Of a stretch of 57,173 nt of DNA, positions 10,793 through 53,970 are shown piece after piece. The stretch lies in the IMG/VR virus record IMGVR_UViG_3300012347_000287, positions 1-57,173 of that record, one strand, 5' to 3'. The DNA comes from a virus (Duplodnaviria > Caudoviricetes). The first letter of the stretch is position 1, and each line of letters starts with the position of its first letter. The translations under genes and the position numbers were made by a program. The notes beneath the pieces are model-generated. The model was not told the origin of the DNA and made no database searches. It saw nothing but the letters and a program-made list of their open reading frames with translations.

Positions 10793-12427
10793 TTATTGTG
10801 AGGATCTTCCCTCTCCCTGAGCATTACGCCCAGCGATGGTGGCAGAATTATCTGATGAGTTATTTGCTCTCTCAGCGTCTCTAGTCTTATTCCCAGCCAT
10901 ATTACCCTTGGCGTCTGCTGCGGCTCTTGCTGTAAGCTCAAGCGGCTCGTCGCCATCTGGTCTCTGTGGCAATCCAAGAATTGTTCTTGCCTCATTAGGT
11001 ACCATGATCTGGTTCTTTACGTAACGCTCGAGAATTTGAGACTGAGCAATTTCATCTGTAAGTGTAAGCTCGTTGAACTTGAGCTCGAGAAGATCTGTCT
11101 TCTCCTTAATGATCTTGCTTAGAAGCTTTTCAATATTTCTCTGGGCTGGTCTGGCTACCTGCTCCTTAAATGTACGGTCTTGAGCCAGGGCAGCAGCAAT
11201 AGCAGAAGAATCTCCTCCACCAATCTTAGACAGTGGAACCTGGTGTGCAACTAGAATGTCATCACGGTTTCTGATTCTATACTCATTAAATGATGCCTCT
11301 TGTACACCATTCTCAATTGGCTCCATCTTAAACTCAACCTTGTTGGTGTCTGAGTCTGCTGGAAGCGGAATGTATAGAGTTCTGTGGCTTGAGCCCTTTA
11401 AGCTTGTCTGTAGAAAGCGGAACATCTTGTCTTCTGCTTCCTCAGATAGCTTGGCACCCTTTAAGGTTACAACATAACGAGGGACCGCCTTGTTTCCAAA
11501 GTAGTCAATATTGTACTGTGAGGCCAGCTGGTCTCCGTGCAGTGAAGAGATTGCAGACATAATGTCTGGAACTCCATAAAAAGTATTTAGAGGAGAGTAT
11601 TGCTTAAAGTGAATAATCTCATTTGGACGTGGATCGGTGGTTAGTGGGTTTGGATTCTTTGCCCCAAAGTTGCGGAAGTAAACTACCTTCTGGCCAATGA
11701 TCTGAACGTATCCATCACGAAGTCTACGCACACGCATAGTTGTAGATGGAATGTGTCCTAGGTAGCCGATCTCATTCTTTGTGGTTCTACCAATTTCAAG
11801 ATACCCGTTTCCAGTTGCCTGAACATCGGTATAAACCTTTTCCATTGTTAGATTAAAGGAGTCATCATCGTTGAGGCTCTCTAGCCAATCCTTTAGCTCT
11901 ACCTTTGCACGTTCGATACGCTTACGTGCCTTATCAGTGGCTGACTCATTTGTAGATGCTTCTAGTGCCATCAGAGTTCTCTGTGTTGCCTGGAACTCGT
12001 ATCCAAGACCAACAATATTTTCTACCTTAGCGTCAATGGCTGCGTGGTTAGCGAACGATGTGTCGTAATAGTTTGCTAGCTCGTAAAGGTTCCATGGTGG
12101 AGTAATGACGTCGAACATTCCATAACCATTACGGTATACAATACCAGGATTGATCTCCTTCGAGTATGCCCCGTCAATACCACGATTAGTCGCTAAAGCA
12201 CTATCCTGATATGCTGGTCTAGTTGTGTCTACGTTGTTGCCAATTGCAGAAACATCTGCCTTTGCCATTCTTTCTGATCTACGCTTAAAGTTCTTTTCTA
12301 GACCAGACAGACCCTTTAGCATGTCCCAGTTTTTAGAGAATGGATCCTGTTCTTTGAAGAGGTCCTTCTCTGACTCTATTTCTGGTAAGCCGATGTCTCT
12401 AATATAATATTCGTTTGATTCACTCAT
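10793..12427 (-). CDS. Portal protein
   Basis: GNGYLE, EIIHFK..YGVP, ILVAHQVP and PNEARTILGL portal motifs. Confidence 0.9.
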   Translation of the reverse strand: MSESNEYYIRDIGLPEIESEKDLFKEQDPFSKNWDMLKGLSGLEKNFKRRSERMAKADVSAIGNNVDTTRPAYQDSALATNRGIDGAYSKEINPGIVYRNGYGMFDVITPPWNLYELANYYDTSFANHAAIDAKVENIVGLGYEFQATQRTLMALEASTNESATDKARKRIERAKVELKDWLESLNDDDSFNLTMEKVYTDVQATGNGYLEIGRTTKNEIGYLGHIPSTTMRVRRLRDGYVQIIGQKVVYFRNFGAKNPNPLTTDPRPNEIIHFKQYSPLNTFYGVPDIMSAISSLHGDQLASQYNIDYFGNKAVPRYVVTLKGAKLSEEAEDKMFRFLQTSLKGSSHRTLYIPLPADSDTNKVEFKMEPIENGVQEASFNEYRIRNRDDILVAHQVPLSKIGGGDSSAIAAALAQDRTFKEQVARPAQRNIEKLLSKIIKEKTDLLELKFNELTLTDEIAQSQILERYVKNQIMVPNEARTILGLPQRPDGDEPLELTARAAADAKGNMAGNKTRDAERANNSSDNSATIAGRNAQGEGRSSQ

Positions 12428-12804
12428 TAGTCATCGCTTCCGTACATGGCTAATGTTTGCTTTGCAGCCATGACAGCACCAAGGTCGTTCATGTTTGGGA
12501 TAAGACCTTGCTTCATTCTGTCTAGCTGTTCGCTGTACTCTTCATCAGAGATTCTCTCCACGCCTGGCATGAACTCGTATGAGCCATCGCCCTGGCCAAG
12601 AGCCTTAGCTTCTTGTTCTAACTTACGAATCTGAAGTGCGTCACCCCTATGGGACGGAACGTTTAGTACGTTGCCATTTCCATCTGTAAAAGGCTTGCCG
12701 TTAGCCTTTTTCCAGAAGTAGATTCCCCAATCGTATTGCTTGTCCAAAACTGTAAGCTTTGATTCACCAACTTGACCAGGAACTCTAAATTTTTCAGCAT
12801 TCAT
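12427..12804 (-). CDS. Hypothetical protein translationally coupled to portal
   Basis: TAATG overlap with portal; TGGTATACT promoter just upstream of the start. Confidence 0.7.
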   Translation of the reverse strand: MNAEKFRVPGQVGESKLTVLDKQYDWGIYFWKKANGKPFTDGNGNVLNVPSHRGDALQIRKLEQEAKALGQGDGSYEFMPGVERISDEEYSEQLDRMKQGLIPNMNDLGAVMAAKQTLAMYGSDD

Positions 12805-12822
12805 AACCACTAGTATACCACA

Positions 12823-15800
12823 TTATACTGCGGAGAGTGTTTGTGTTTGCCAAGAAATATCTTTTAATATCTTATGTTGCTGATACTTTATCGTCAGAGG
12901 GGTGGTGTCGTCTACAATTATTTTGTTAGTTCCAGTATATGTCTTGTAAACATCCGATGGATCTACGCCATAATAACTTCTAGATGCCAGTACCAGAACT
13001 CCGTTCCAGATGTATGACATGTCCCAGTACTGCCAATCAAACTCCAGTGAGCCAGACTCTCTTACCTTTAGCCATGGTCTTGTAGTTACTTGCTGAACCT
13101 CTTGTAGGTTAGTAGACTGATAATGAGAAAGCATATTTACTAGGATTGGTCCAGTTATTCTAAAGGCACCGAGATAGTTGTTGAGGATTAGGGTGTTGGA
13201 AAAGCTTATTCCTAGCATGCCCCACTGCTTTATGGTAATGTTTGGATCTTTTACGATCTTCCCATTCCAGTAGAAGGCAATTCCATTCTCTAACTTTCCA
13301 GTTTTAGCATCGACCGCATAGATTCTTGCTCTCTTGCCGCTTGGGTGATTAGCTACCAGATAAAACTTTAGGAGTGAGTTTCTTGACTCAATCTGGAATA
13401 TTTCTGTTGGTGCGAATGGGAAGAAGTCTTCATCATAGCGAATGGCTAGCTGGGAGGCAATGATTTTATAGCTTGATGACAGTCCCTCATTTAATGGGAT
13501 AGATAGTCCTCTATTTACTAATGGGTCGTAGGTTCCTCGCATCTGAATCCCACTTGTTCTTGTCAGATAAAGGTACGGTGAGCTACCCTTATAGATGCTA
13601 AATGGATTTCTACTCTTGTAGTCGTAGTAAACTCCAGTCTTTTTATATGGATATATCTTAGTTCCAAATCTAGTTCCAACGCCAACTGGAGTTGTGTCAT
13701 TAAGAGCTTGGGAGGCATACTGAAGTTTTTTAATCTTAATCGGATTATACTTTAGTCCATCTACCTTAAATTCTATGTGTGTAACCAAAGCAAGCTCGCT
13801 GAAGTTTACACCAGATGGTGGATAGATTATCATGTTATCTACAACTTCATACCTGGTCCTGCTCCAGTCTTCAGACAGGCTACCAGGAATAACTATGCCG
13901 TCTTTTGGTGCAGAAACGGTGTTTGTAAAATACTCTAAAGATTCATTCGCACCACTCTTTAGATATTGAAAAGTTATGTATGTTTTTACCAAAGATGATG
14001 AGGTGTCGTACTTATAAGACTTTTCAGCCTTATTCTTTAGATCTAGGTAATCCTGATACCCCGTGAATAGTTGATTATCTAATGACTCGTAAGTTCTTTG
14101 TACTGGAACGGAATACTGTTCTTGCAGTTGCTCGTATGTCCAAGAGCCATTTGACTGTTCCTCGGTGAATCTAGATGGTGCTGGGTAGTTAATATTGAAC
14201 TGAATAAAGTCAAGATCGTATCTAGTGTCATTGTTGGCATCGGTTATATACTTAGCAAAATAACTTAATGGAATATAGTCTTCCCAGTATGAGTCTGCCA
14301 AGATATCTATTACAAAATTTCCAAAATATGACTTTGGAGATATTGTATAGCTAGCAATGTGTGGTTGAAGATTTGCTGTTGCAACTGTCGCTGGTGAACC
14401 ACCGTTATATAGCACTGACCAGAATGCTGTAGATGCTTCTCCACCATCTAGTTCTATTCCGTCAATCAGGGATGCGAAATCCTGCTCGTCTACTACAACA
14501 CCATTGCTATTAAACAGGTGGGATATTTTCTTTAAGTTTCTTTTTGTACAAAAGCCAATGTTGTAGATGTGGCCTAGGAACGTATTCTCAAAGCTTTTGT
14601 TTCCTCCAATAGATACGCTCAGCAGAGATTTCTTGCCAAAGAAAGAGGCTGTGTTGCCACCGAAATGACTAACAAATGCCTGTATGTCTAATCCAATAGA
14701 GAAGTCTTCTCCAGGATAGTGCTTTTGAGCTGTATAGATAGTTTCTTGTTGCGAGTTAAAATAAAGAACATAGTCAATTGAATCTAGTCCAAGTTTAATT
14801 TGAAAGTAGTTAGAGCTAGAAACATCGTCTATCTGAAATAGTATTTGCTCTCTATCAGCTGGCTCAAGCTCCCGAAAGACTCCGTAGAAACCCTTCACAT
14901 CTTCAGAAAGTACGCTTAGTCGATCGACCACAATATATCCCTGGGTACTGTTCCACTGTGAATTTGGGTACATTGATATAAAGGTTTCAGACATTTCTGA
15001 TTGTGCCGAAGCTATGTCGGTATCCCACTGACCTCTTGTCTTATTGTTAAATATAATTCTAGGCTCTACCAAGGTAGGAGATGATAAAATTCCATTGTCG
15101 GTAGACAGGTTCTCAACTATAGCCTGGCTCCACTTTCCAATATCTGGATAGCTGTAGCTATTAGCATAATTGGCAAAGGGATAATCTATAAACACTGAAG
15201 TTCCGCTATATGCAGTGTTGATATTTTCTGGAAACTCTACTGCCTGGCCATAAACCCATCTACGCTTTAGCATTATCTGAGATGCCCTATATGGATATAT
15301 CGCAACACAATCCACATCTATTGGAGATGCATCCTCATAGGCGTAGAATGCTATCCAGTCCTGATCATTATTCTGAGTGTTTAGTTTATCTGGAAAGTCT
15401 AGGACTTCTCCAGAAATATCTAGAGAGATAACCTCTTCGCCATTGATCAGTAGGCTTATGCTGGATCTAGAATATGTTATGTTAACAAGCATTGGTCTTT
15501 GCCATTCACCAACGAAGTAAGACCCGAACAGATTTCCGACTTTAAGAATTATTAGAGGTCCGTGGACATATATGCCATCTAGCGAAGATATTGGCCCCAA
15601 TATTCTTTTTTCTATAGTTGTATCAGAGCTTATCTTGAGCCAGGCTTCGAAGGTGTAGTCACGATATTCTCCAGACGCATTTAAAAATCCGTATCCAGGA
15701 ACTATTAGGGAGGGTCCACTATTTGGAGAAATTGTAGTTAGATTAGATGCCCCATAGACCATAGGGATACCTGTATTTTTGGCTAATAGAGCATTGTCTT

Positions 15801-16527
15801 TTACGAAGTAATACCCAGGGGATTCCTGAATGCCGTAAGCACTAGCCTCTATCACCTTGGAGGGATCTAGGGCTATGGATGATGGTAGGTCTATTTGAGT
15901 TACCCCCAAAGAGACTGAGTTAAACTCTTCTGACCATTGGCCTAGAGATAGTCCATTAACTAGAAACTTGTAGTCGTCGGTAGTTGGTGCCCCACCAACA
16001 TAATTTACTTTTAAGACTAGCCTCATTGTGCTGTTGTCTGCTGGTATGTTGAATGTTTCAGAAACAAACATCCATTTTTCAGAAATTGAAGTTTCAAACT
16101 TTTTTACTTTTTGCACATTGGCTGCAGAAACCGAGTCATAGTACTCATAGCCAATTTCTATACTTTCTAGATATGAGCTTGAAGTATAAAAGTATGCACC
16201 TATTGCAAAGGTAGCAAGGTCGGAATTTAGAGATGTAAAGTTTATCCCAGACAGTCCACCGATTGTGTCTGGACTAATGCATTCGATTTGTCCGATTGGG
16301 TCACTGGTAAGGCTACCTGTTAGCTCTGTTGTGTGACTAGAGCTGAATGGCTCATCCACTACGTTTAACTTAGTTTGTGCGGTACCGCCAGAAATTGTCC
16401 AGCCTGAAACATCTCTATCCGACTCTCTAATCAGGGAGACGTAGTCTGCTGTATCATCTAGTGCCCAAAGAGCTAGTGGGTGTTCACTAAAAATTTTTTC
16501 CGCATAGAGGTTTGATGGGCTAGACAT
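12823..16527 (-). CDS. Large minor virion/tail protein (LamG/concanavalin-like N-terminus)
   Basis: 1234 aa, beta-rich; YAEKIFSEHPLALWALDD and YTFEAWLK LamG-like motifs. Confidence 0.55.
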   Translation of the reverse strand: MSSPSNLYAEKIFSEHPLALWALDDTADYVSLIRESDRDVSGWTISGGTAQTKLNVVDEPFSSSHTTELTGSLTSDPIGQIECISPDTIGGLSGINFTSLNSDLATFAIGAYFYTSSSYLESIEIGYEYYDSVSAANVQKVKKFETSISEKWMFVSETFNIPADNSTMRLVLKVNYVGGAPTTDDYKFLVNGLSLGQWSEEFNSVSLGVTQIDLPSSIALDPSKVIEASAYGIQESPGYYFVKDNALLAKNTGIPMVYGASNLTTISPNSGPSLIVPGYGFLNASGEYRDYTFEAWLKISSDTTIEKRILGPISSLDGIYVHGPLIILKVGNLFGSYFVGEWQRPMLVNITYSRSSISLLINGEEVISLDISGEVLDFPDKLNTQNNDQDWIAFYAYEDASPIDVDCVAIYPYRASQIMLKRRWVYGQAVEFPENINTAYSGTSVFIDYPFANYANSYSYPDIGKWSQAIVENLSTDNGILSSPTLVEPRIIFNNKTRGQWDTDIASAQSEMSETFISMYPNSQWNSTQGYIVVDRLSVLSEDVKGFYGVFRELEPADREQILFQIDDVSSSNYFQIKLGLDSIDYVLYFNSQQETIYTAQKHYPGEDFSIGLDIQAFVSHFGGNTASFFGKKSLLSVSIGGNKSFENTFLGHIYNIGFCTKRNLKKISHLFNSNGVVVDEQDFASLIDGIELDGGEASTAFWSVLYNGGSPATVATANLQPHIASYTISPKSYFGNFVIDILADSYWEDYIPLSYFAKYITDANNDTRYDLDFIQFNINYPAPSRFTEEQSNGSWTYEQLQEQYSVPVQRTYESLDNQLFTGYQDYLDLKNKAEKSYKYDTSSSLVKTYITFQYLKSGANESLEYFTNTVSAPKDGIVIPGSLSEDWSRTRYEVVDNMIIYPPSGVNFSELALVTHIEFKVDGLKYNPIKIKKLQYASQALNDTTPVGVGTRFGTKIYPYKKTGVYYDYKSRNPFSIYKGSSPYLYLTRTSGIQMRGTYDPLVNRGLSIPLNEGLSSSYKIIASQLAIRYDEDFFPFAPTEIFQIESRNSLLKFYLVANHPSGKRARIYAVDAKTGKLENGIAFYWNGKIVKDPNITIKQWGMLGISFSNTLILNNYLGAFRITGPILVNMLSHYQSTNLQEVQQVTTRPWLKVRESGSLEFDWQYWDMSYIWNGVLVLASRSYYGVDPSDVYKTYTGTNKIIVDDTTPLTIKYQQHKILKDISWQTQTLSAV

Positions 16528-16546
16528 GATAGTCTATTTTACCACA

Positions 16547-17152
16547 CTAAAAGCCTTTAATTTCCCAGTTATCCCATTCAACTTCTTCGTAGGGAATTGA
16601 GTTTGGCATCCATAGCTGCCCCTCGTGACCCATCCAAGCTTCTGACATGTAAAGATCTCCATCAGATATTTCTTTAATGCCCACCTTGTTTTCTTCGCAC
16701 TCTATAAAATAAATCAAATCTCCTGGATTTGGTTTAATAGAATATCCGAGATTAGAGAAGGTTAGTTCTCCCCCATTGAAGTCATCATTCCAAAAAATCA
16801 ATGACCTGTAGGTTCTGTCTGGCTTTGTTCCGTCCAGCTGTGGATCTACAGACTTTCCGCTAGTGTACCTAGCTATATAATGCTTTGAAAACATTGGTGG
16901 AAGATATTTTTCTTTTTCTTCTAGTTGAACCAGATCATAAAGACCTTTTGAATATTTAGAAAATATATCAAGTATTTCTTTTGGCATCTCTCCACGTGTA
17001 TGAATGTCAAAACTTGCATTATATTTAGAGTATAGGTTATCGTGCAGAGGGACGTGGTCTTCTTTAGTATTAAACTTAATAGTTTTTACATAGTCCTGTA
17101 TTATCAAAACATCGTCTTTAGACATAAAGTTTTTTGCTATATGAATGCTCAC
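16547..17152 (-). CDS. 2OG-Fe(II) oxygenase-fold protein, apparently lacking catalytic residues
   Basis: FWNDDFNGGELTF...KPNPGDLIYF P4H-like motifs, but QLD replaces HxD. Confidence 0.7.
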   Translation of the reverse strand: MSIHIAKNFMSKDDVLIIQDYVKTIKFNTKEDHVPLHDNLYSKYNASFDIHTRGEMPKEILDIFSKYSKGLYDLVQLEEKEKYLPPMFSKHYIARYTSGKSVDPQLDGTKPDRTYRSLIFWNDDFNGGELTFSNLGYSIKPNPGDLIYFIECEENKVGIKEISDGDLYMSEAWMGHEGQLWMPNSIPYEEVEWDNWEIKGF

Positions 17153-17160
17153 TGTTTCTC

Positions 17161-17310
17161 CTATGTGAATGTTGGTCTAGAATGACTATTTTTATTCTTA
17201 TTGCATCTAGAGCAATAAACCATCTCCGCTTTTGAAAATGGACATACCTCTTTATGAACCTTATGCCCCACAAGAAAGCACACGAGCTTCTGCACTTTTC
17301 TGAACCTCAT
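17161..17310 (-). CDS. Small Cys/His (Zn-ribbon-like) protein, 49 aa
   Basis: Hand translation MRFRKVQKLVCFLVGHK...CPF...CSRC; TAATG coupling to the upstream gene. Confidence 0.65.
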   Translation of the reverse strand: MRFRKVQKLVCFLVGHKVHKEVCPFSKAEMVYCSRCNKNKNSHSRPTFT

Positions 17311-17972
17311 TAGTTAAGTGGTATCCAGTGCTGCTCTTGGTGCATCCCAAAAGATTTTAGTTCTTCTAGTGGAAGCACATCGTAAGCTACTGTAATTCTT
17401 GGGCCATCCCAGTTCCAGTCGCCCATTGCGTGTGGATGTCCCATTTCTGACAATACTGCACGGTTATTCTTATTAATATTTTGAACCTGCTTGTCAAAAG
17501 TTATGTAGTGTGTTACAGAGGGCTCGGCAGAAACTGAATAGTAGCCGTGGAATAGTGGTGCCCCAATAGGTCCGTGATCATGCCAGTCTAGCTTTCCATT
17601 GCCAGAATGATTAATATTGAACCATCCCTGCATCATGAATTGCTGAGAGTCGAAGTCTACCCCGTAATATTCACAGGCTTCTCTTACCATTGACGATATG
17701 CCGTCATATAGCTTTCTTATTCCATCGATGTGGAACTGGAACACATTGTATTCTCTCCACTTTATGGTAGATGCACTATTAGAAGATTCCCATAGCTCAT
17801 TCTCTCCCATTGGATCTACCCCAAAGAGTTTAGCCTGTTCGATCTTTTCATATCGATCTTGCAGCTCTTTTGTAAGCAGGTCCAGATCATTATCTAAAAA
17901 TCGCTCGAAGAATTTATGTGGTTGTTTAGATTGACTAACGCTCTTCATGTATGTGTCAAAGTCTGAATTCAT
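17310..17972 (-). CDS. Putative 2OG-Fe(II) oxygenase
   Basis: WFNIN...WHDH...HGYY...HPH...RITVAYD double-stranded beta-helix pattern. Confidence 0.7.
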   Translation of the reverse strand: MNSDFDTYMKSVSQSKQPHKFFERFLDNDLDLLTKELQDRYEKIEQAKLFGVDPMGENELWESSNSASTIKWREYNVFQFHIDGIRKLYDGISSMVREACEYYGVDFDSQQFMMQGWFNINHSGNGKLDWHDHGPIGAPLFHGYYSVSAEPSVTHYITFDKQVQNINKNNRAVLSEMGHPHAMGDWNWDGPRITVAYDVLPLEELKSFGMHQEQHWIPLN

Positions 17973-18019
17973 AACTGTAGCTCCTAAGTGTGTGTATAAA
18001 AATTATACACCATAGACGA

Positions 18020-19228
18020 CTACTTGTTGTGAGAAATTATAGATCCAGCAATGAATGTGTCGATGCCGTCAATACTTATCTGATAAACAGTAACATCAGA
18101 CTCGACAATCTCGACGCTGGTGATTTCTGTTTCTACATAAGACTTTGACTCAAAGTTGTATTCCCAGACAATATCTCCAACAGAAAGCTCTCCAGAGAAT
18201 TCCCAGGCATCCTTCTGGCCAGTCTTTCTAGCAAGTAGTGGCTGCGTTAGAGAAAAGTGCTTTCCTGCATCTCCGTTAAAGATGACCGATTTATCTACAA
18301 CCTTGCCAGAAACTGAAGAGACTTCTCCAAAGCCAATTCTCTTGCTAGTTAGGGCATCGTATTCGATTCTAGAAGAATATGGGCTAGGGGTTCCATCGAA
18401 CTCATCCCATACTGGAGAAAGAACTGCGGCCCCAACCTTTAAGTCTTTTGCCTTTACGAAAACGACTTCCCCAGCTTCTCCTGGTGTAGCTATTTCGGTA
18501 TTTTCTGCAACACATCTAAATGGTGAGAACCCAAAAGCTCCAAATGGTGAAAAGCCAAACGCTCCAAATGGGGAGAATCCGAATGCACCAAATGGTGAGA
18601 ATCCAAAAGCTCCGAATGGTGCGAACGAGAATGTGGTTGTAACAGAGTTCGATGCTGCAGAAGTGCCAGATGAACCATTTGCATTGTCTGCACGAACCGT
18701 ATATGTCTGTGCTGTACCCTGCTCTTGACCAAGATCGACAGTTGTTGACGAAGTGTTTCCAGACTTACCATCACTCGAAGCCCAGAAATAGTTGGTAATT
18801 GCTTTTCCACCGTTTGCTGGTGCAGACCAGGTAATTCTGTCTACTCCTGCCGATGGGGTTGATGCCGATGGTGCTGATGGTGTTGCAGGAACCGTAGTAG
18901 CAGTAATAGCTGTAGAAGCAGATGATGCAGCAGATGTTCCATATGCATTAGTTGCTGTTACAGTAAAAGTGTAGCTAGTTTCTGACTGTAGTCCCTGAAC
19001 AACGATTGGAGAGGATGCTCCAGTAGCCGTATATCCACCAGGAGATGATGTTACGGTGTATGAAGAGGCAGCGTTTGGGCCTTGTGCAGTAAATGCAACT
19101 GAAGCTGCCCCATTGTTAAAGGCTCTTCCAGTACCTATATCTGTGGCAGTACCAATTAATGGTGCTGCTGGAAATAGATTGTCATTCTGTGCTAGGGACT
19201 TTTTACCCACTCTTTTATTTGCTGCCAT
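18020..19228 (-). CDS. Fibronectin-III protein with PFGAFGFS repeats and C-terminal Hint domain
   Basis: Two FN3-like domains (YTFTVTATNAYG, YTVRADNANG); CVAENT...AKDLKVG...VYQISIDGIDTFIAGSIISHNK*. Confidence 0.8.
   Translation of the reverse strand: MAANKRVGKKSLAQNDNLFPAAPLIGTATDIGTGRAFNNGAASVAFTAQGPNAASSYTVTSSPGGYTATGASSPIVVQGLQSETSYTFTVTATNAYGTSAASSASTAITATTVPATPSAPSASTPSAGVDRITWSAPANGGKAITNYFWASSDGKSGNTSSTTVDLGQEQGTAQTYTVRADNANGSSGTSAASNSVTTTFSFAPFGAFGFSPFGAFGFSPFGAFGFSPFGAFGFSPFRCVAENTEIATPGEAGEVVFVKAKDLKVGAAVLSPVWDEFDGTPSPYSSRIEYDALTSKRIGFGEVSSVSGKVVDKSVIFNGDAGKHFSLTQPLLARKTGQKDAWEFSGELSVGDIVWEYNFESKSYVETEITSVEIVESDVTVYQISIDGIDTFIAGSIISHNK
18518..18631 (-). repeat. Tandem 24-nt coding repeat, (PFGAFGFS)x4
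   Basis: Identical peptide units written with synonymous codon variation. Confidence 0.95.
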
Positions 19229-19251
19229 TTAATTCAATTCCCCTTCTAGGA

Positions 19252-20841
19252 TTAAGCTGATAGATCTCCGAAGACAACCCAAGTATCGGTTGCTCGCTTG
19301 AATAGTGTTGCTGATGACCACTGTGTACGTAGCTTTAGTCCAGGAGTAGCGTTAACCGTAACTCCACCTGCACCTGCGATAGTAACCTGTCCAGCACCTG
19401 TCTGTAGGATGTCAATAGATGTTCCTACTGGATATGAAACTGATGAGTTTGCTGGGATGGTGAGTGTAACACCTGAAGCTGAAGATACCTCTACAAGCTT
19501 GTCACGGTCTGCTAGAGCTACTGTGTAAGCTCCTGCTTGCTGATTAATAGCTGTAAGCGATGGGACCCCCTGCTTAACCTGTACTCCATCAGCATACTCG
19601 ATTCCGCCAACCTTTAGGGTGTCGTAAACTGCCTGAGAGAAGTTAACTGTAGTAGTTGGCTCGTCCTCAACGCTTGAGAATAGCTTCCATACGCCATCAG
19701 TGGCGTCACGAACGATGCCTGCATGCTGATATGCTCCATCGTTGAACGATGAGACAAGACCAAGGTCAACAATGTTTGCAGAGTTTCCCTCACCAATGTA
19801 AATTAGTGGGTCAGTGACTGAAAGGTCGGTAGCGTTAACGGTTGTAGTTGTTCCTCCAACGGTCAGGTTTCCAGTTATAGATAGATCACCAGTGCTTACT
19901 GTACCAGTAAATGTTGGGTTTGCTGTTGGTGCCTTTGAGTCTAGCTGTGTCTGAATGCTTGACGTGACTCCATCAACATAGTTTAGCTCTGTAACTGTTA
20001 GAGTTGCACCATCAAGGATGTTTACTTCTGATGCTGATGCGGTTACGTCAGCTACATCTGCTAGATTAACTGTTACAGTGTTATCTGCTGCAGAAATAGT
20101 CTTGCCAGTAAGAGTCTGAGTTCCAGTAAGAGTTACAAGTGCTGAAGTGTCTGAGATGCCGTGAACGTTTGTGGTATCTGATCCGTGAGTATCTAGTTCT
20201 GACTGTGCAGCAGAAATAGCGGCTGCCTGAGCTGCGTCTGCCTTTGTTGTAGCATCTGCGGCTGCGGTAGCAAGAACAGATGTCGCTGATGCAGCAATTG
20301 CCGTGTTTCTGTCAGTGACTTCGCTAGCAACAGCAGAAGTAATTGCGTTATCTCTTGCAAGAACCTCGTCTGAAATTGCTGCATTAATAGCAGCAGCTCT
20401 TGCTGTTACCTCGTCGCCAATCGCTGTGTCTAGTGCTGCTGAGAAGGCTACTTCATTAGCGGTAAGTCCAGCATCAATTCTTGTATTTACTGCAGTGCTA
20501 GAGTCGTTGAGGACTGCTGCAATCTCATCTAGGGTATCTAGAATAGCTGGAGCGTCGCCAAGAATATTCCCTAGCTGGGTAACTGGAATGTATCCATTGG
20601 CATCTAGAGTAGCTACACCGTTTGCAGCATCTCTCTGTGTTAGAGGAATGTAGTCATCTAGAGTTCCACCAAGGTCTTCTAGGTTCTTGAAGTATGAAAG
20701 ATCTGCCCAGTGATTAGTACCGTCACCGATCTTAAACTGGCTAGTATCTGTTTCAAAACCAATTTCACCAGCTGCCAAAATTGGGTCTGCTGAAGTCCAC
20801 TGAGCCGCAGTTCCTCTGCGTTGCTGCATTCTTGTTGCCAT
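19252..20841 (-). CDS. Tail fibre protein with Mtd-like N-terminal domain
   Basis: QRRGTAAQWTSADPILAAGEIGFETDT..KIGDG..W..L N-terminus, Ala-rich coiled coil, C-terminal domain ending WVVFGDLSA. Confidence 0.75.
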   Translation of the reverse strand: MATRMQQRRGTAAQWTSADPILAAGEIGFETDTSQFKIGDGTNHWADLSYFKNLEDLGGTLDDYIPLTQRDAANGVATLDANGYIPVTQLGNILGDAPAILDTLDEIAAVLNDSSTAVNTRIDAGLTANEVAFSAALDTAIGDEVTARAAAINAAISDEVLARDNAITSAVASEVTDRNTAIAASATSVLATAAADATTKADAAQAAAISAAQSELDTHGSDTTNVHGISDTSALVTLTGTQTLTGKTISAADNTVTVNLADVADVTASASEVNILDGATLTVTELNYVDGVTSSIQTQLDSKAPTANPTFTGTVSTGDLSITGNLTVGGTTTTVNATDLSVTDPLIYIGEGNSANIVDLGLVSSFNDGAYQHAGIVRDATDGVWKLFSSVEDEPTTTVNFSQAVYDTLKVGGIEYADGVQVKQGVPSLTAINQQAGAYTVALADRDKLVEVSSASGVTLTIPANSSVSYPVGTSIDILQTGAGQVTIAGAGGVTVNATPGLKLRTQWSSATLFKRATDTWVVFGDLSA

Positions 20842-20902
20842 GTAAGTATCTCCTAATTGGTGGGGTTAACCCAAGTATCTATTACTAATTATAACATTAG
20901 TT

Positions 20903-21358
20903 TTATGCAAAGTTGCTTTCAGCGTTTCCGCCGTCAAGAACTAGCTGCCATTCTGTTGTTGCTGGTCCACCACCATCAAGTGCGTTAATTGGTGTATCGT
21001 TAGATCCTCCACCTTCGGTAAAGTAGCTAACAATCAGACCGCTTCCGCCGATTGATGTGTCGTGAATGTGCTGAGGTATGTTTTGTGCATCTTCGTATGA
21101 CGCCATAACATACCAAGTTCCATCGTAATAGATTTTTAGTCTATTTATAGATGAATCAAACCATTGTGCTCCATTTGCTGGCGAAAGTGGCTCTGTAGAT
21201 CCAGCAGTCGCAATTCCAGCTAGCGAGTCAACATACGACTTAGTAGCTGCGTGAGTAGACTCTGTCGGGTCAGAAACAACTACAGTTCCTCCAAATGTAC
21301 CACCGCTATTAACGATTAGGCCATTTTTGACCTTAAAATCTTTCTCTACTGTTGTCAT
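20903..21358 (-). CDS. Small fibre/adaptor protein
   Basis: KDFKVKNGL N-terminus shared with 21428..23104; AATKSYVD fibre motif; LDGG motifs at the C-terminus. Confidence 0.6.
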   Translation of the reverse strand: MTTVEKDFKVKNGLIVNSGGTFGGTVVVSDPTESTHAATKSYVDSLAGIATAGSTEPLSPANGAQWFDSSINRLKIYYDGTWYVMASYEDAQNIPQHIHDTSIGGSGLIVSYFTEGGGSNDTPINALDGGGPATTEWQLVLDGGNAESNFA

Positions 21359-21385
21359 ATAGTTTCTCCTATTTAAAACTTTAGT

Positions 21386-21412
21386 GTGGGGGGTTTTTAA
21401 GGAACCCCCCGA
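21386..21412 (-). terminator. Hairpin/terminator after long fibre gene
   Basis: GGGGGGTT...AACCCCCC inverted repeat. Confidence 0.45.
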
Positions 21413-21427
21413 AACCTTTACTGTTTA

Positions 21428-23104
21428 TTAGACTAGCAATGTTCCAACAGCAGTAACTGTTGAGTTGTTGTTAGCGGTTGTTACTAGTAACTGTACATCA
21501 GTTCCTGAGATACCTGCCGATACTGTCATTCCAGAACCGTTGGTTCCGATAATTCCGTACTCTGTGATTGCAATGTTGTCATTTACATCAAGAGTTAGAA
21601 GTACCTTTGAAATTTCAGTGTGGTCTCCGTAAGCAACCTTTACAAGGAACTCTGCTGAGCGGTAGTCAGCCTTTGCAAAAGCAGTTGCAACGTGGATTCC
21701 AGCGGTTGTTGCTGAAAGTGTTGCCGCTACCTGCTTGGCTACGTTATCGATGATTACAGCATTTGGATAAATGTCTGCATTAGATACTGCATCGATTGCA
21801 CGTTCGTCGCTGAAGTATAGGTTGTTGTCACCCTCTGCTAGATCGTCAGTTGTTGAATCTGCTACGCCATTCTCTGCAATGATGTTTAGTCCACCAAAAG
21901 CATTTTGTGAAATCTGAATGTTTGTAAGAGATGTGTTTACGCTGGTTAGCATATCCATTGCTGACTGCTGTGCACGGTTATCTGTAAAGTATAGGTTGCC
22001 AGCACCCTCTTCGATGTCGTCAGTGTCTAGTGCATTGATTGAGTTATCTGTGTAAACGTTTGCATTCGACTCTGCTGTTGAAGCAGCACCTGCCGCATCG
22101 TAGTTAACAGCAAGACCATCTGCATATGACTTAGCAGCAGCCTCTGCAGAAGCAGCAGAACCAGAGGTGTCCCATAGACCAGTATTTGCAGAAACTGCAG
22201 CGGTGTCGAAGTCAGAGATGTCTGCTGAGTCGAGACCAGTTACAGATACTACGTTGCCTGTGATGTCAATGTTTGTACCAGCGGTGTAGGTGGTAGTAGA
22301 GATTGCGTTAGCAATTTCGTCATCTACGTATGTGGTGTCAGCCTTTGTTGCAACTAGGTTAGCAACGTCAGTTGCGTAGTTCGGGTTGTCAGCAATTGCT
22401 GCAGCCAACTCGTTAAGTGTGTCGAGAAGTGCTGGTGCACCATCTACAAGGGCTGCAACCTCTAGGTCTGTGTATGCCTTTGCATCTACAAGGGCAGCGT
22501 TTGCCTTTGTAGTGGCATCCGATGAAGCAGTAGAGATAGCCTCTGACTTTGCAGTTGCAATGTCTGTGGTTACTGTTCCATACAGAGTAGTGTCAGCATT
22601 TGTTGCAAAAGTTTCTGCAGCTGACTGAGCTGCATCTGCCTTTGAGGTAGCGTCTAGTGCAGCGGCTGCAATAGCTGCGGCTTCTGCGGCGTCTGCCTTT
22701 GAGGTTGCATCTAGTGCTGCTGCTGCGATTGCATCTGACTCTGCAGTGTCTGCATAGCCCTGAGCGATAACTCCTGCTTCTGACTTTGCAGTTGCAATGT
22801 CAGTGGTTACGGTACCGTAAAGAGCGGTGTCAGCGTTGGTGGCGAATGTCTCTGCTGCTGCCTGGGCATCCGCTGCTGCACCTGCAGCGTCAAATACGTT
22901 AGCCTTAACATTTAGCTCACCAGCGACAACCTCTAGCTGAGTTGACTCAACTGATGTGATTAGAGTTTCTCCACCAACAATGTCAATGATGTGCTGTGTT
23001 GATGCTGCTGAAGTGGTAAGGATATCCTCACCGTTAATGGTACCTGTGGTACCTTCTACAATAAGACCAGATTTAATCTTGAAGTCTTTATTTACTGTTG
23101 CCAT
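21428..23104 (-). CDS. Long tail fibre-like protein
   Basis: Ala-rich internal repeats, LVDGAPALLDTLNELAAA, two TDD(I/L)xEG..NLYF motifs. Confidence 0.7.
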   Translation of the reverse strand: MATVNKDFKIKSGLIVEGTTGTINGEDILTTSAASTQHIIDIVGGETLITSVESTQLEVVAGELNVKANVFDAAGAAADAQAAAETFATNADTALYGTVTTDIATAKSEAGVIAQGYADTAESDAIAAAALDATSKADAAEAAAIAAAALDATSKADAAQSAAETFATNADTTLYGTVTTDIATAKSEAISTASSDATTKANAALVDAKAYTDLEVAALVDGAPALLDTLNELAAAIADNPNYATDVANLVATKADTTYVDDEIANAISTTTYTAGTNIDITGNVVSVTGLDSADISDFDTAAVSANTGLWDTSGSAASAEAAAKSYADGLAVNYDAAGAASTAESNANVYTDNSINALDTDDIEEGAGNLYFTDNRAQQSAMDMLTSVNTSLTNIQISQNAFGGLNIIAENGVADSTTDDLAEGDNNLYFSDERAIDAVSNADIYPNAVIIDNVAKQVAATLSATTAGIHVATAFAKADYRSAEFLVKVAYGDHTEISKVLLTLDVNDNIAITEYGIIGTNGSGMTVSAGISGTDVQLLVTTANNNSTVTAVGTLLV

Positions 23105-23124
23105 TTTTATCTCCTAGGGGGTAG

Positions 23125-23571
23125 TTAGGCCTTAAGACCGATACGAGCGAATCGTACGGTAATAGGCTTGATATTTGCATCTGGGGTAACAGTTAAAGCA
23201 ACTGTACTTCCAGATCTAGAGACATTAACGGTGCCAATATTCCCATCATTGTCTATTGTTCCATACTCAGAAACATTTACGTCTGTTCCATCTACAAGTA
23301 TGGTAAGTTCTGTTGCATAGAAGAAGTTATCTCCTGCTGAGGTCTTAGAAATTGACACAATGTATTTGACCATACGCCAAACTGTTGCGTCAAAGGAATC
23401 TACCACTGTTGGGTTCTCGATGCCCGTAATGGTGTTCTCGTTATTACCAAAGGTACCCAGATCGGTGGACTGGGCTGAGGTAGTATCAATGAGATCTACA
23501 TAATCCTGTTCTTCAGGCTTATCACCAGTCTCAAATCTGGTCTTTACGTACGGTAGGGTTGTTCTAGACAT
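23125..23571 (-). CDS. Virion structural protein
   Basis: RFETGDKPEEQDYVDLID N-terminus; C-terminal domain (VSEYG) resembles that of 21428..23104 (ITEYG). Confidence 0.55.
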   Translation of the reverse strand: MSRTTLPYVKTRFETGDKPEEQDYVDLIDTTSAQSTDLGTFGNNENTITGIENPTVVDSFDATVWRMVKYIVSISKTSAGDNFFYATELTILVDGTDVNVSEYGTIDNDGNIGTVNVSRSGSTVALTVTPDANIKPITVRFARIGLKA

Positions 23572-23608
23572 GTAATAATTATAGCATCGTTTATTTTAGT
23601 TTATATAA

Positions 23609-23833
23609 TTACATTACGTAATTGTTAACGCCAATGACAGCAATACCAATAGGTGCAGCGTTATCTCTACCATATGTTTGGAGACCGACGCTAATAAACT
23701 TTACTCTAAATGGTAGCGTATGATTTATCTTTACGTTACCGCTTTTATGAGTAATCTTTGATCTAGAGAAGTCTGAATTTTTAACTGATTTAGTTATGTT
23801 AGCTGGCTTAGATACAATAACTGCCTTAGCCAT
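23609..23833 (-). CDS. Small virion-associated protein
   Basis: TAATG-coupled to 23833..24219. Confidence 0.55.
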   Translation of the reverse strand: MAKAVIVSKPANITKSVKNSDFSRSKITHKSGNVKINHTLPFRVKFISVGLQTYGRDNAAPIGIAVIGVNNYVM

Positions 23834-24219
23834 TAGTCTGTCACATCTTCGATAACAATTACCTTACCCTGAGCAACTGTCCAAACAGTTCCTGGCTGAC
23901 TTAATTGAATATCGAAAATATCGCCAGTCTGCAAAAGCTCTGACTCACTTGAGGCTAAAGCCACGGTAAACTCTCCAGCAAGATCATTGTCATCTGGTGC
24001 TGGGCTTAGGGTAAGAACTAGCTCTGCGTCATCTGTAATGACACCAAGGTTTTTTGCTAGATTTGGACGCTTTATCTTCATAGAGATTGTCCACTCAGAA
24101 ATGGTCAGTGCTACCTTCGAGTCGTCAGTGACGTATACCTTGAATGCTGCAGTATCTCCACGGACCAATGTCCATGCTACCTGTGGCGGTACGTTGCCAA
24201 CGCTATATCCTCTAGCCAT
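23833..24219 (-). CDS. BppU-N-like baseplate/fibre adaptor (paralog 1)
   Basis: LVRGDT...FDIQL...TVAQGKVIVIEDVT pattern. Confidence 0.55.
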   Translation of the reverse strand: MARGYSVGNVPPQVAWTLVRGDTAAFKVYVTDDSKVALTISEWTISMKIKRPNLAKNLGVITDDAELVLTLSPAPDDNDLAGEFTVALASSESELLQTGDIFDIQLSQPGTVWTVAQGKVIVIEDVTD

Positions 24220-24237
24220 TTTATAATTATATCACTA

Positions 24238-24741
24238 TTAGCTTAGTCCAGCTTTTAGTGCCCCCCAAGTTCCATTTCCCTTTGCATCAACTGACACAAT
24301 TCCATTTTCTGCTGCATACACAACTACAGCTACGGCCCCACCGTGGTGAAGAATGTTAGTCAGTCCGCCAGTTTCACCAGAGTATAGAATATCTCCTGCT
24401 GCATATCCAGAAGTATTAATGTTTTGAACTACTCCAGACACAACAACTATTCCGCTAGCGTTATTCAGGATAGTTGCTTTTACTAAGCCCAGGATTGGAG
24501 CAGTTGTATCGTGAACTGCCTTTGCTACTGTCGTAGAGGTAGTGTATCCAGTAACATAAACTGGATCTCCAGCGTTTAGGGTGACTCCACTATTATTTAA
24601 AACGTTTACCTGTGAATAAGATGCAAGAGGAAGAACAGCCTCTAGCTTTTCAACTAGTTGCTTGATGTCTCCATGAACATTAACATTATCTTCTGCTAAT
24701 GGGTAAGGTAAGTCGTAAGAGTCTGATTGTCCTGTGGCCAT
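24238..24741 (-). CDS. Virion structural protein
   Basis: YDLPYPLAEDNVNVHGDI fibre-type N-terminus; NNSGVTLNAGDPVY domain. Confidence 0.55.
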   Translation of the reverse strand: MATGQSDSYDLPYPLAEDNVNVHGDIKQLVEKLEAVLPLASYSQVNVLNNSGVTLNAGDPVYVTGYTTSTTVAKAVHDTTAPILGLVKATILNNASGIVVVSGVVQNINTSGYAAGDILYSGETGGLTNILHHGGAVAVVVYAAENGIVSVDAKGNGTWGALKAGLS

Positions 24742-24767
24742 TTAATAATTATACCACGCTAAAAAGT

Positions 24768-24826
24768 TGAACACAGGGTAAAAAACTGGTATAATTGTAT
24801 GTAACTTCCTGCAAAGGAAGTTTTTG
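24768..24826 (+). promoter_or_regulatory. Sigma70-type promoter plus 5' hairpin for the NlpC/P60 unit
   Basis: TGGTATAAT at 24787-24795 followed by AACTTCCT-GCAA-AGGAAGTT-TTT. Confidence 0.6.
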
Positions 24827-24841
24827 TTCTAAGGAGGACAA

Positions 24842-24919
24842 ATGACTAAACAAAGTGACAACAATGTTGAAATCGTGACTAACTCTCAACAACAGACATA
24901 TTTATTGCTATCGCACTAA
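24842..24919 (+). CDS. 25-aa upstream ORF
   Basis: AAGGAGG RBS; MTKQSDNNVEIVTNSQQQTYLLLSH*. Confidence 0.4.
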   Translation: MTKQSDNNVEIVTNSQQQTYLLLSH

Positions 24920-24988
24920 TAAAAATATTGTCGCCAAGACCGTGACAGGGTCGTAACAACGAAAAGAATAAAAAGGAGGTAGTAATTT

Positions 24989-25564
24989 ATGAAAGAATTA
25001 TTGCTAATAGGAACCACAGTACTTGCTATAACATCTGGAAGTCTGACAGCTGCATCTAATGTAGAATACCCCAAAAGACCTGAACGTGGAAATCACGTTT
25101 CAGTAGCAACCCTTCAAAGGCTTGAAATCAAAGCACAGGATGCTATTGATCAGGCAAAAATGCAAAAGCTTAGAGAAGCCACTATTGAAGTTGATAAGGC
25201 AATCGATAAGCTATCTATGCACGTCGATAAAACCTGGTATGTATTTTCTGGAAATACCCCGAGAGGCTGGGACTGTTCTGGACTGACAATGTGGTTTTAT
25301 GAACAGCTTGGCATTGAGCTAGAGCATCGTGCATCTATCCAGGGTAAAACTGGACAAAGCACAGCCGATCCAAAACGAGGAGATCTTGTAGTTTTCAAAT
25401 ATAATGGAAATAAGTCCGCATACCATGTTGGCATTTATATTGGAAATGGAAAAATGATTCATGCCCCTAAGCACGGACACGTTACAAGAATAGAGAACAT
25501 TGAATCTTTTGGTGGAGAATATTCTAAAATAAGCTATAGAAGATTAGTTAATACCATTGGATAG
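24989..25564 (+). CDS. Secreted NlpC/P60 cell-wall endopeptidase
   Basis: Signal-like N-terminus; WDCSG, GDLVVF and HVGIYIGNGKMIHAP motifs; AAGGAGGT RBS. Confidence 0.9.
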   Translation: MKELLLIGTTVLAITSGSLTAASNVEYPKRPERGNHVSVATLQRLEIKAQDAIDQAKMQKLREATIEVDKAIDKLSMHVDKTWYVFSGNTPRGWDCSGLTMWFYEQLGIELEHRASIQGKTGQSTADPKRGDLVVFKYNGNKSAYHVGIYIGNGKMIHAPKHGHVTRIENIESFGGEYSKISYRRLVNTIG

Positions 25565-26119: not shown

Positions 26120-26121
26120 TT

Positions 26122-26715: not shown

Positions 26716-26716
26716 T

Positions 26717-26974
26717 CTACCACTTTCCAATTGGGCAAGAAGCCTTTTCAAGCTTGGTCTTTGCGGCCATGAAGCATCCACAGTTTCTACACTGCTTTGT
26801 TAGCTTAATTAATTCTGGACAAGACTTGCAAATGTCAAATCTTCTAGCTGCCTCTTCATCAGAGGTCCTTTGCTCTTGTGGATTTATCATGTCCCATGGC
26901 TTTACGTCGCCATTAACTAATGAGCCTCCAGTATTCTTAATTAAGTCTTTTAGTTTTTCAACTTTATCATTCAT
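26717..26974 (-). CDS. Small Cys-rich protein (DUF6171-like)
   Basis: ICKSCP...CRNCGCFM..K..L..ASCPIGKW. Confidence 0.75.
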   Translation of the reverse strand: MNDKVEKLKDLIKNTGGSLVNGDVKPWDMINPQEQRTSDEEAARRFDICKSCPELIKLTKQCRNCGCFMAAKTKLEKASCPIGKW

Positions 26975-27015
26975 AGCTTGCCCAAATCTATTAGATAAAA
27001 ATTATACCATATAGG

Positions 27016-28212: not shown

Positions 28213-28220
28213 CTATAGAC

Positions 28221-48817: not shown

Positions 48818-48820
48818 TAA

Positions 48821-53966: not shown

Positions 53967-53970
53967 GTTA

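What the first reader, a model, noticed from the sequence alone, without database searches (positions are those of the whole stretch)
18023..18514. Atypical Hint domains: block-B TxxH replaced by SxxQ, and a single Lys as C-extein
Seen: both Hint domains (18023..18514 and 27019..27504) start with Cys, share a WDE insert, have SLTQP or SLEQP where inteins have TxxHP, lack the block-F Asp (VYQ, VYS) and end HN-K-stop. Known: the block-B His promotes the N-S acyl shift, and splicing needs a +1 Cys/Ser/Thr. Inference: canonical splicing is impossible; the shared substitutions point to a distinct Hint subfamily with triggered cleavage or amine ligation, possibly involving the terminal Lys.
Basis: partly seen in the sequence, partly recalled or inferred. 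Interest (0 to 1): 0.75.

Follow-up and report, generated by a model that had tools for sequence, protein, structure and literature searches.

The report
Lysine-tailed Hint cap on phage fibre partners
Two proteins encoded next to the tail-fibre genes of an uncultured phage end in a genuine intein-like (Hint) domain followed by a single lysine. It is most likely a cap that cuts itself off after the protein is made, and it belongs to a large phage family that I did not find described in print.

Summary
ORFs 18020..19228 (P0001) and 27016..28212 (P0002) each end in a roughly 163-residue domain. It starts with Cys, carries WDE, has SLTQP or SLEQP where inteins have TxxHP, has VYQ or VYS at block F, and ends His-Asn-Lys-stop.

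An AlphaFold model (pLDDT 85) has a Hint fold. [quoted passage not shown] All 37 sequences examined (the window's two proteins and 35 orthologues) keep these motifs.

In the wider family (825 representatives), the hallmark is the lysine tail rather than the glutamine. Lys sits at +1 or +2 in 94 of 107 terminal His-Asn domains. Block B varies: Gln 53, His 37, Glu 14.

Homologues of the P0001 cargo (two FN3 domains plus FGxFGFSP repeats) carry this Hint, other Hints, the self-cleaving Peptidase_S74 chaperone, or no cap. Nearly all follow a fibre gene with a shared C-terminal domain.

Best reading: a BIL-like, single-turnover, self-removing C-terminal cap. Whether lysine resolves the thioester is inferred, not shown. 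I rate it a new variant of a known kind.

The parts
18020..19228 (-). Gene for P0001 (402 aa): two FN3 domains, an FGAFGFSP repeat linker, a Hint domain, Lys, then stop
   Evidence: ORF and translation. Pfam fn3 scores 28 bits against a cutoff of 25. In the full-length AF2 model the FN3 domains have pLDDT above 90, residues 201-236 are below 50, and the Hint is confident.
18515..18631 (-). N-extein end: FSFAP(FGAFGFSP)x4 FR, a Phe/Gly/Pro octapeptide repeat with no confident predicted structure
   Evidence: Sequence. pLDDT is below 50 for residues 201-236. The repeat number varies among orthologues.
18023..18514 (-). Hint domain C239..N401 plus the one-residue C-extein K402 (the flagged feature)
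   Evidence: AF2 pLDDT 85, pTM 0.80. Foldseek PDB: BIL2 6y75 E 6.9e-8, RadA intein 4e2u, BIL 2lwy, Hedgehog 1at0. Profile against PDB: 4e2u at E 2.4e-6.
18512..18514 (-). Cys1 (C239), the predicted nucleophile for the N-S acyl shift
   Evidence: Invariant in all 24 sequences of the P0001 group. Cys in 54 of 54 family domains whose N-terminus aligned.
18239..18253 (-). Block B SLTQP, with Gln329 in place of the catalytic His
   Evidence: HMMER alignments to 4e2u and 2lwy. Coordinates.
18023..18031 (-). Block G His400-Asn401 and Lys402; the TAG stop is at 18020..18022
   Evidence: HNK-end in 24 of 24 sequences.
27016..28212 (-). Gene for P0002 (398 aa): PASTA domain, Cys-rich region, Pro/Thr linker, Hint, Lys, then stop
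   Evidence: Pfam PASTA scores 29.4 bits against a cutoff of 23.2.
27019..27504 (-). Paralogous Hint domain C237..N397 plus K398. Block B SLEQP is at 27229..27243.
   Evidence: 31% identity to the P0001 Hint, E 3e-22. The 13 orthologues keep all motifs. Coordinates.
19252..20841 (-). Upstream tail-fibre gene (529 aa; Mtd_N N-terminus). Its conserved C-terminal domain (residues 435-527) is at 19261..19539.
   Evidence: Pfam Mtd_N at 54.8 bits. PHROG tail-fibre families. The C-terminal domain is 40% identical to that of 28221..28859, E 3e-18.
28221..28859 (-). Upstream 212-aa gene with the same C-terminal domain (residues 120-210; 28230..28502), paired with P0002

Best explanation
Each Hint domain is an active, single-turnover, self-removing C-terminal cap on a tail-fibre partner protein.

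The precursor has three parts: an adhesin-like module (two FN3 domains in P0001; PASTA plus a Cys-rich region in P0002), a flexible linker, and Hint-Lys.

Proposed steps:
1. After translation, Cys1 attacks the preceding peptide bond (N-S acyl shift). Ser and Gln of block B stand in for Thr and His.
2. The resulting thioester is resolved, and the cargo is released ending in ...SPFR.

Because His-Asn and the Lys tail are conserved together, I think the most likely resolution is BIL-like. Asn401 cyclises, and an amine of the Lys tail (epsilon, or alpha after release) takes the acyl group, which would leave cargo-Lys. Plain hydrolysis is nearly as likely.

Shown here: the fold, conservation of the catalytic positions, interchange of the cap with a known self-cleaving cap and with no cap, and the conserved gene pairing.

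Inferred: that cleavage happens at all, which nucleophile acts, and when.

My odds: self-removing cap 0.65. Within that, lysine-amine resolution about 0.3 overall and hydrolysis about 0.3 overall.
For: (1) The fold is a real Hint fold, with Cys1 and His-Asn in register.

(2) The catalytic positions are among the invariant columns at 25-34% identity: C4, S91, Q94, P95, H165, N166 and K167 of alignment A2. They hold in all 37 sequences examined, namely the window's two proteins and 35 orthologues.

(3) Cap interchange. I took the 120 best homologues of the P0001 cargo, out of 2476 at E<=1e-5 among the 8000 candidates scored. By C-terminal end they split as follows:
- 26 end in a Hint with HN-(x)K.
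- 35 end in other Hint types.
- 4 carry Peptidase_S74, the self-cleaving 'chaperone of endosialidase', directly after the repeat (41.5-49.3 bits against a cutoff of 22).
- 52 have no cap.
- 3 are unclear.

(4) Some uncapped forms end ...GFFR...GGGFR or ...FGVFGFR. This matches the ...SPFR end that N-terminal cleavage of P0001 would leave.

(5) The cargo gene follows a fibre gene with the shared C-terminal domain in 98 of 102 distinct IMG/VR proteins, whatever the cap: Hint 56 of 58, uncapped 42 of 44. The same holds for both window genes and 6 of 6 loci found with the Hint profile.

(6) Lys goes with His-Asn. Lys is at +1 or +2 in 94 of 107 His-Asn termini, but in the last 8 residues of only 5 of 25 family termini without His-Asn.

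(7) Precedent. BIL domains mainly cleave (PMC7664689 passages). Tetrahymena BIL2, the top fold hit, is reported to form a Lys epsilon-amine isopeptide (PMC8616854 section 2.4).
Against: - No chemistry was measured.
- The block-B His and the block-F Asp and His are all replaced (Gln; Gln or Ser; Asp), so the domain could be slow or inactive.
- 25 of 132 terminal family members lack His-Asn. The C-terminal step is therefore dispensable in some lineages, and the Lys could simply be part of a clade-specific block G motif: internal tandem Hints also have +1 Lys in 34 of 53 domains.
- Uncapped homologues end in many different ways, not only in R or K.
- No model coordinates were available, so I could not measure the distance from the Lys to Cys1.
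Confidence: 0.62

Rival explanations
1. Trans-ligation. The Cys1 thioester is attacked by an outside amine, such as a Lys of the fibre C-terminal domain, another virion protein, or a cell-wall amine. The FN3 or PASTA module would become covalently tethered through its C-terminus. This would be Hedgehog-like, BUBL-like or sortase-like.
For: The gene pairing with a fibre carrying a conserved C-terminal domain is tight: 98 of 102 IMG/VR proteins and 8 of 8 Hint genes, namely the two in the window and six loci found with the Hint profile. That domain has invariant lysines: K503 and K515 are invariant in 5 of 5 sequences. The top fold hit, BIL2, is reported to conjugate a ubiquitin-like domain to lysines (PMC8616854). 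A long flexible linker precedes the junction.
Against: Uncapped and S74-capped homologues keep the same fibre pairing (42 of 44 uncapped), so partnership does not need a thioester. The conserved intramolecular Lys and Asn would be unnecessary. No positive evidence of contact was obtained.
Confidence: 0.13
2. Catalytically dead Hint fold, retained in the mature protein as a structural or binding tip domain.
For: Three catalytic residues of canonical inteins are replaced: the block-B His, the block-F Asp and the block-F His. The Pfam Hint models score below their cutoffs.
Against: Cys1, His-Asn and the block-B Ser stay invariant at low overall identity, which a dead domain would not require. The same position in homologues holds a known self-cleaving cap or nothing at all.
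Confidence: 0.12
3. Triggered cleavage. The cap stays on the virion, and the weakened active site (Gln for His) fires only on a cue at the host surface, such as thiols, pH or a ligand. The cargo would then be released or anchored during adsorption.
For: The His-to-Gln or His-to-Glu change could slow the acyl shift (inference from the passages of PMC6333167). The cargo domains (PASTA, FN3) are of types that bind cell envelopes; this rests on general knowledge of these domains, not on a test here.
Against: Close relatives with the same architecture keep His (37 of 107). No sensor element is evident, since the tail after His-Asn is one residue long.
Confidence: 0.08
4. Artefact: a decayed intein, or a stop codon that is read through so that a longer C-extein exists.
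For: Both genes end in TAG.
Against: Read-through adds only 11 or 14 codons before the next stop. The downstream similarity is a promoter-like DNA motif. HNK-end is conserved in all 37 sequences examined. The domain sits after a linker, not inside a conserved host protein.
Confidence: 0.02

Closest known systems
A-type bacterial intein-like (BIL) domains, e.g. the Clostridium thermocellum BIL (PDB 2lwy)
   Same: Hint fold (Foldseek E 7.9e-7, TM 0.65/0.78). N-terminal Cys, C-terminal His-Asn and no +1 Cys/Ser/Thr. BIL domains are reported to give mainly N- and C-terminal cleavage (PMC7664689 passages) and sit on variable surface proteins. The A/B typing and the host-protein context are recalled from Amitai 2003 and Dassa 2004, which I did not read here.
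   Different: Sequence similarity is weak (profile E 0.0065). The block-B His is replaced by Gln. The domain lies at the extreme C-terminus with a 1-6 residue Lys tail rather than inside a protein. The hosts are phage fibre-partner proteins.
BIL2 of the Tetrahymena thermophila BUBL1 polyubiquitin-like locus (PDB 6y75, 6tmm)
   Same: Best structural match (E 6.9e-8). No canonical +1 nucleophile. It is reported to end in a Lys epsilon-amine isopeptide (PMC8616854 section 2.4), the chemistry proposed here for the Lys tail.
   Different: BIL2 keeps the block-B His (H69) and is flanked by ubiquitin-like domains, and its lysine comes from a folded C-extein. Identity is 14-15%. It is eukaryotic.
Hedgehog/Hog autoprocessing domain (PDB 1at0)
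   Same: A C-terminal Hint that releases an N-terminal cargo through a Cys1 thioester. Fold match E 5.4e-6.
   Different: Hedgehog has a sterol- or adduct-recognition region after the Hint and no conserved terminal His-Asn (recalled). Here the tail is a single Lys and His-Asn is conserved. Pfam Hint PF01079 scores 12.8 bits against a cutoff of 29.7.
Peptidase_S74 intramolecular chaperone of phage tailspikes and fibres (PF13884)
   Same: It occupies exactly the same position on four cargo homologues: after the FG repeat, at the C-terminus. It is known as a self-cleaving, discarded C-terminal assembly cap (Pfam description; the mechanism is recalled).
   Different: Unrelated fold and chemistry (a Ser-Lys dyad, recalled). 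This is a functional analogue only, not a relative.
Class 1 inteins that naturally lack the block-B His (Tko CDC21-1 group)
   Same: They show that the N-S acyl shift can proceed without the block-B His through compensation (PMC6333167 passages).
   Different: Those are true inteins inserted in conserved host proteins, with a +1 nucleophile.

Membership tests
Hint (Hedgehog/intein) superfamily | Hint beta-fold | tested here: met
   AF2 pLDDT 85, pTM 0.80. 59 PDB matches at E<=0.001; the 49 rows the call printed are BIL, intein or Hedgehog chains.
Class 1 intein | N-terminal Cys or Ser nucleophile | tested here: met
   C239 and C237. Cys in 54 of 54 aligned family domains.
Class 1 intein | Block B TxxH | tested here: not met
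   SLTQP and SLEQP align on TPSHP and TFDHP.
Class 1 intein | Cys, Ser or Thr at +1 of the C-extein | tested here: not met
   +1 is Lys followed by stop. Only 7 of 107 family termini have Cys, Ser or Thr at +1.
Class 1 intein | Inserted within a host protein whose two exteins form one functional protein | tested here: not met
   The domain is terminal, and the C-extein is one residue. Cargo homologues exist without any insert or cap (52 of 120).
Class 1 intein | Terminal His-Asn (block G) | tested here: met
   H400-N401 and H396-N397.
Pfam Intein_splicing (PF14890), PT-HINT (PF07591), Hint (PF01079) | Score at or above the curated gathering cutoff | tested here: not met
   P0001 scores 18.7 and P0002 28.9 against 35.8. 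PT-HINT scores 18.1 against 27.7, and Hint 12.8 against 29.7. None of the 70 family members scanned reaches a cutoff; the best is 32.7.
A-type BIL domain | Hint domain with Cys1 and His-Asn but no +1 nucleophile | tested here: met
   The definition is taken from PMC7664689 passages and from recall of Amitai 2003.
A-type BIL domain | Conserved block-B His and significant sequence relationship to BIL profiles | tested here: inconclusive
   The His is replaced by Gln. The only BIL sequence available, 2lwy, matches at E 0.0065 (profile) and 0.069 (single sequence). No BIL profile library was available.
Hedgehog/Hog | Adduct- or sterol-recognition region after the Hint | tested here: not met
   Only one residue follows the Hint.
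PT-HINT (pretoxin Hint) | A toxin domain downstream of the Hint | tested here: not met
   A stop codon follows the Lys.
Any autoprocessing Hint | Demonstrated self-cleavage | not testable with these tools
   Needs expression and mass spectrometry.

The most novel reading that the evidence does not exclude
The Lys tail is the built-in acceptor of a minimal protein-splicing reaction. The epsilon-amine of Lys at +1 or +2 attacks the Cys1 thioester, and Asn cyclisation then frees the Hint. The fibre-partner protein would end in an isopeptide-linked lysine. Alternatively, the same thioester is passed to a lysine of the fibre's C-terminal domain. Either way, this would be a phage-encoded, enzyme-free amide ligation. 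The only description of such chemistry that I found is for a ciliate BIL domain.
Probability: 0.3. Interest if true: 0.8.

Novelty: new variant of a known kind. Interest (0 to 1): 0.58.

Why it matters
If the cap is active, many uncultured phages use Hint chemistry to mature or arm the proteins that sit beside their tail fibres. That role is so far assigned in phages to the unrelated S74 chaperone cap.

The family is also a natural experiment on intein catalysis. The 'essential' block-B His is swapped freely for Gln or Glu, while a one-residue Lys C-extein is kept.

If the Lys proves to be the acyl acceptor, these 160-residue domains would be compact, self-contained tools for C-terminal cleavage or lysine ligation. 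They would also extend isopeptide-forming Hint chemistry from one ciliate locus to viruses.

Tried and rejected
- Complex prediction of full-length P0001 with the fibre C-terminal domain (residues 400-529 of 19252..20841) returned no verdict: ipSAE 0.00 in two runs, controls not run. I draw nothing from it.
- tblastn of P0001 and megablast of 12000..30000 against 50,697 phage records found no match.
- The search for related loci with P0002 alone in viral contigs found none. The profile found six.
- The genome-contig scan with the Hint profile confirmed none of 70 pattern hits. No prophage copy was found, but that scan depends on two short peptide patterns.
- PHROGs has no family for either protein. 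NCBIfam gave only weak FN3 or PASTA-type hits.
- The ESM Atlas gave only viral 'hypothetical' or Hint clusters.
- The downstream gene 17310..17972 shows no similarity to the 2OG oxygenases.
- I considered an internal Cys-Gln thioester, as in Gram-positive thioester adhesins (mechanism recalled). I rejected it because the Gln is His or Glu in 51 of the 104 close relatives with a residue at that column.
- I considered that the Lys compensates for the lost His. I rejected it because Lys is kept in 31 of 37 His-bearing members.
- I considered stop-codon read-through and rejected it.
- Four literature searches listed no paper describing Hint caps on phage fibre-partner proteins.
- Supplements were closed and could hold such annotations.
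- No model coordinates were available, so I could not measure active-site distances.

Full report
**What is there**

The window is an IMG/VR virus record of 57,173 bases, with CheckV completeness of 49. Bases 1-31,400 hold a minus-strand structural module:
- tape-measure-like protein
- head-tail adaptor
- major capsid protein
- prohead protease
- portal
- several fibre genes
- an NlpC/P60 peptidase

The portal is 45-48% identical to those of 120-134 kb Streptomyces phages. I found no close relative among 50,697 deposited phage records.

The flagged intervals lie on the minus strand. They are the C-terminal 164 and 162 codons of two ORFs: 18020..19228 (P0001, 402 aa) and 27016..28212 (P0002, 398 aa).

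Both domains share the following:
- They begin with Cys (C239, C237).
- They carry WDE.
- They have SLTQP or SLEQP.
- They have VYQ or VYS.
- They end His-Asn-Lys-TAG.

They are paralogues: 31% identity, E 3e-22.

- Gln falls on the block-B His.
- Gln or Ser falls on the block-F Asp.
- The Asp of DTF falls on the block-F His.

An AlphaFold2 model of the P0001 domain is confident (pLDDT 85, pTM 0.80). Foldseek matches it to Tetrahymena BIL2 (E 6.9e-8), the RadA intein, BIL 2lwy, DnaB and RecA inteins, and Hedgehog 1at0.

P0001 and its 23 orthologues (24 of 24), and P0002 with its 13 orthologues, keep every motif and the Lys-stop ending. Reading through the TAG adds only 11 or 14 codons. The similarity downstream of the two stops is a shared TGnTATAAT-like motif.

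**The family**

A profile of eight Hint-only sequences, searched against 1.84 billion representative proteins, found 825 proteins at E<=1e-3 and 153 at E<=1e-10. I analysed the 150 best, realigned to the profile:
- 132 have the Hint within 25 residues of the protein end.
- 107 of those end in His-Asn plus a tail. The tail is 1 residue in 41 and 2-6 residues in 52.
- Lys is at +1 or +2 in 94 of 107. Cys, Ser or Thr is at +1 in only 7.
- Of the 25 terminal members without His-Asn, only 5 have a Lys in the last eight residues. Lys and His-Asn therefore travel together.
- Block B varies: Gln 53, His 37, Glu 14, gap 3. Lys is kept with each (48/53, 31/37, 14/14).

So the hallmark is the lysine tail, not the glutamine.

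Of 70 members scanned against Pfam, 27 start with FN3 and 12 with PASTA. None reaches a curated cutoff of any Hint family. In BFVD the nearest models are unnamed or auto-named proteins of uncultured Caudovirales.

**Context and the key comparison**

Each Hint gene lies 8-35 bp downstream of a gene whose product ends in a shared domain of about 94 residues:
- The 529-aa fibre (Mtd_N N-terminus) precedes P0001, and a 212-aa protein precedes P0002. Their C-terminal domains are 40% identical, E 3e-18.
- The same pairing holds in 6 of 6 loci found with the Hint profile.

Searching with the P0001 cargo alone (residues 1-238) gave 2476 homologues at E<=1e-5, among the 8000 candidates scored. The 120 best differ only in what follows the FGxFGFSP repeat:

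| C-terminal end | Number of 120 |
|---|---|
| Hint ending HN-(x)K | 26 |
| Other Hint types | 35 |
| Peptidase_S74, the self-cleaving endosialidase chaperone (41.5-49.3 bits, cutoff 22) | 4 |
| No cap | 52 |
| Unclear, apparently frameshifted | 3 |

In 102 distinct cargo proteins from IMG/VR loci, 58 carry a Hint and 44 do not. The fibre gene with the shared C-terminal domain is immediately upstream in 98 of them: 56 of 58 with a Hint and 42 of 44 without. Three of the four exceptions sit near the start of their locus.

Some uncapped forms end ...GFFR...GGGFR or ...FGVFGFR, like the ...SPFR that precedes Cys1 in P0001. In the full-length model the two FN3 domains and the Hint are confident, and the repeat (residues 201-236) is not.

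**How it most likely works**

The Hint is an optional module at the end of a conserved fibre-partner protein. It is exchangeable with a known self-cleaving cap, yet its catalytic Cys, Ser and His-Asn are held invariant. The simplest reading is a self-removing cap:
1. An N-S acyl shift at Cys1.
2. Release of the cargo.

Because His-Asn and Lys are conserved together, I favour a BIL-like resolution. In that scheme Asn cyclises and an amine of the Lys tail accepts the acyl group. Plain hydrolysis is almost as likely.

Precedents come from papers I read only in part:
- BIL domains lack the +1 nucleophile and mainly cleave (PMC7664689).
- BIL2 is reported to form a Lys epsilon-amine isopeptide (PMC8616854 section 2.4).
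- A few natural inteins work without the block-B His (PMC6333167).

None of the chemistry is shown here.

**Rivals**

- Trans-ligation to the fibre or the cell wall (0.13).
- A dead structural domain (0.12).
- Cleavage triggered at the host surface (0.08).
- Artefact or stop-codon read-through (0.02).

**Novelty**

This is a new variant of a known kind: BIL-like Hint autoprocessing. Four literature searches listed nothing on Hint caps of phage fibre partners, and supplements were closed.

Earlier notes of this scan describe the same family in other genomes. They reached similar readings independently of my first statement. They are leads, not evidence.

New here:
- The cap interchange with S74 and with uncapped forms.
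- The separation of the Lys hallmark from the Gln substitution.
- The link between Lys and His-Asn.

Noticed in passing
window 50965..57100: A cluster of modification-type genes. It holds two 2OG-FeII_Oxy_3 (prolyl-hydroxylase-type) genes (51699..52277, 55636..56211) and a PF11397 'GlcNAc' glycosyltransferase (56195..57100, 72.9 bits). It also holds a GT4 glycosyltransferase, a Stealth CR2-like gene and a sulfotransferase-like gene. Together with the oxygenases beside the Hint genes (26122..26781; a sub-threshold match at 16547..17152), this suggests hydroxyproline glycosylation of Pro-rich linkers or of the collagen-like fibre. This is speculation.
   Followed up: no
window 17985..18019 and 26975..27015 (minus strand): Both Hint genes use identical last codons (CAC AAC AAG TAG). 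Within about 12 nt, each is followed by a shared CTAT..TG(G)TATAATTTTTAT motif, which looks like an extended -10 promoter for the next gene.
   Followed up: partly
proteins P0072, P0116, P0132, P0141, P0150, P0156, P0181, P0187: More distant hits are proteins made of 3-5 tandem Hint domains joined by ...HNK-GG(G)C... These Hints have a canonical block B (TxxHP) and Lys at +1. Each short KGGG linker would lie between an Asn-cleavage site and a Cys1 site. Their purpose is unknown.
   Followed up: no
proteins P0016-P0019: Proteins of about 600 aa with two Hints in tandem. The first aligns without a Cys1 and has Gln at the block-B column. It ends HN-IPPGKC and runs directly into a second, canonical Hint (TDDHPF).
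   Followed up: no
IMG/VR loci L044, L046, L049, L050, L052, L077, L085, L086, L126: Uncapped cargo homologues end in short, conserved tips. Some are Cys-rich (...WQACPACCGGNCGC...CPECTKGCPC) and others are not (...NWYNCPGPC...PIRGPK...FYPFRGV). The end of the FG repeat seems to be a functional tip with many designs.
   Followed up: partly
proteins P0044, P0048, P0056: Close relatives with a canonical block B (SPTHP, TQSHP, TPTHP) have lost the terminal Asn and end ...SHR...CHR or ...CHK. Within this clade, keeping the His in block B goes with losing the Asn in these three.
   Followed up: no
window 17310..17972 (-) and paralogues in L004, L005, L007, L008: The gene just downstream of P0001 (220 aa, phrog_2696, ends ...EQHWIPLN) has 1-4 tandem paralogues after the Hint gene in related loci. 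It has no Pfam or NCBIfam match and no similarity to the 2OG oxygenases.
   Followed up: partly
window 48407..50460 (-): An RtcB RNA ligase (393.7 bits), a Phage_VG64 family protein and a metallophosphoesterase lie side by side. This may be an RNA-repair set. ARAGORN found no tRNA genes in the window.
   Followed up: no
window 12823..16527 (-): A 1234-aa ORF between the portal region and the fibre cassette has no PHROG or Pfam match. It is conserved in L003 and L005.
   Followed up: no
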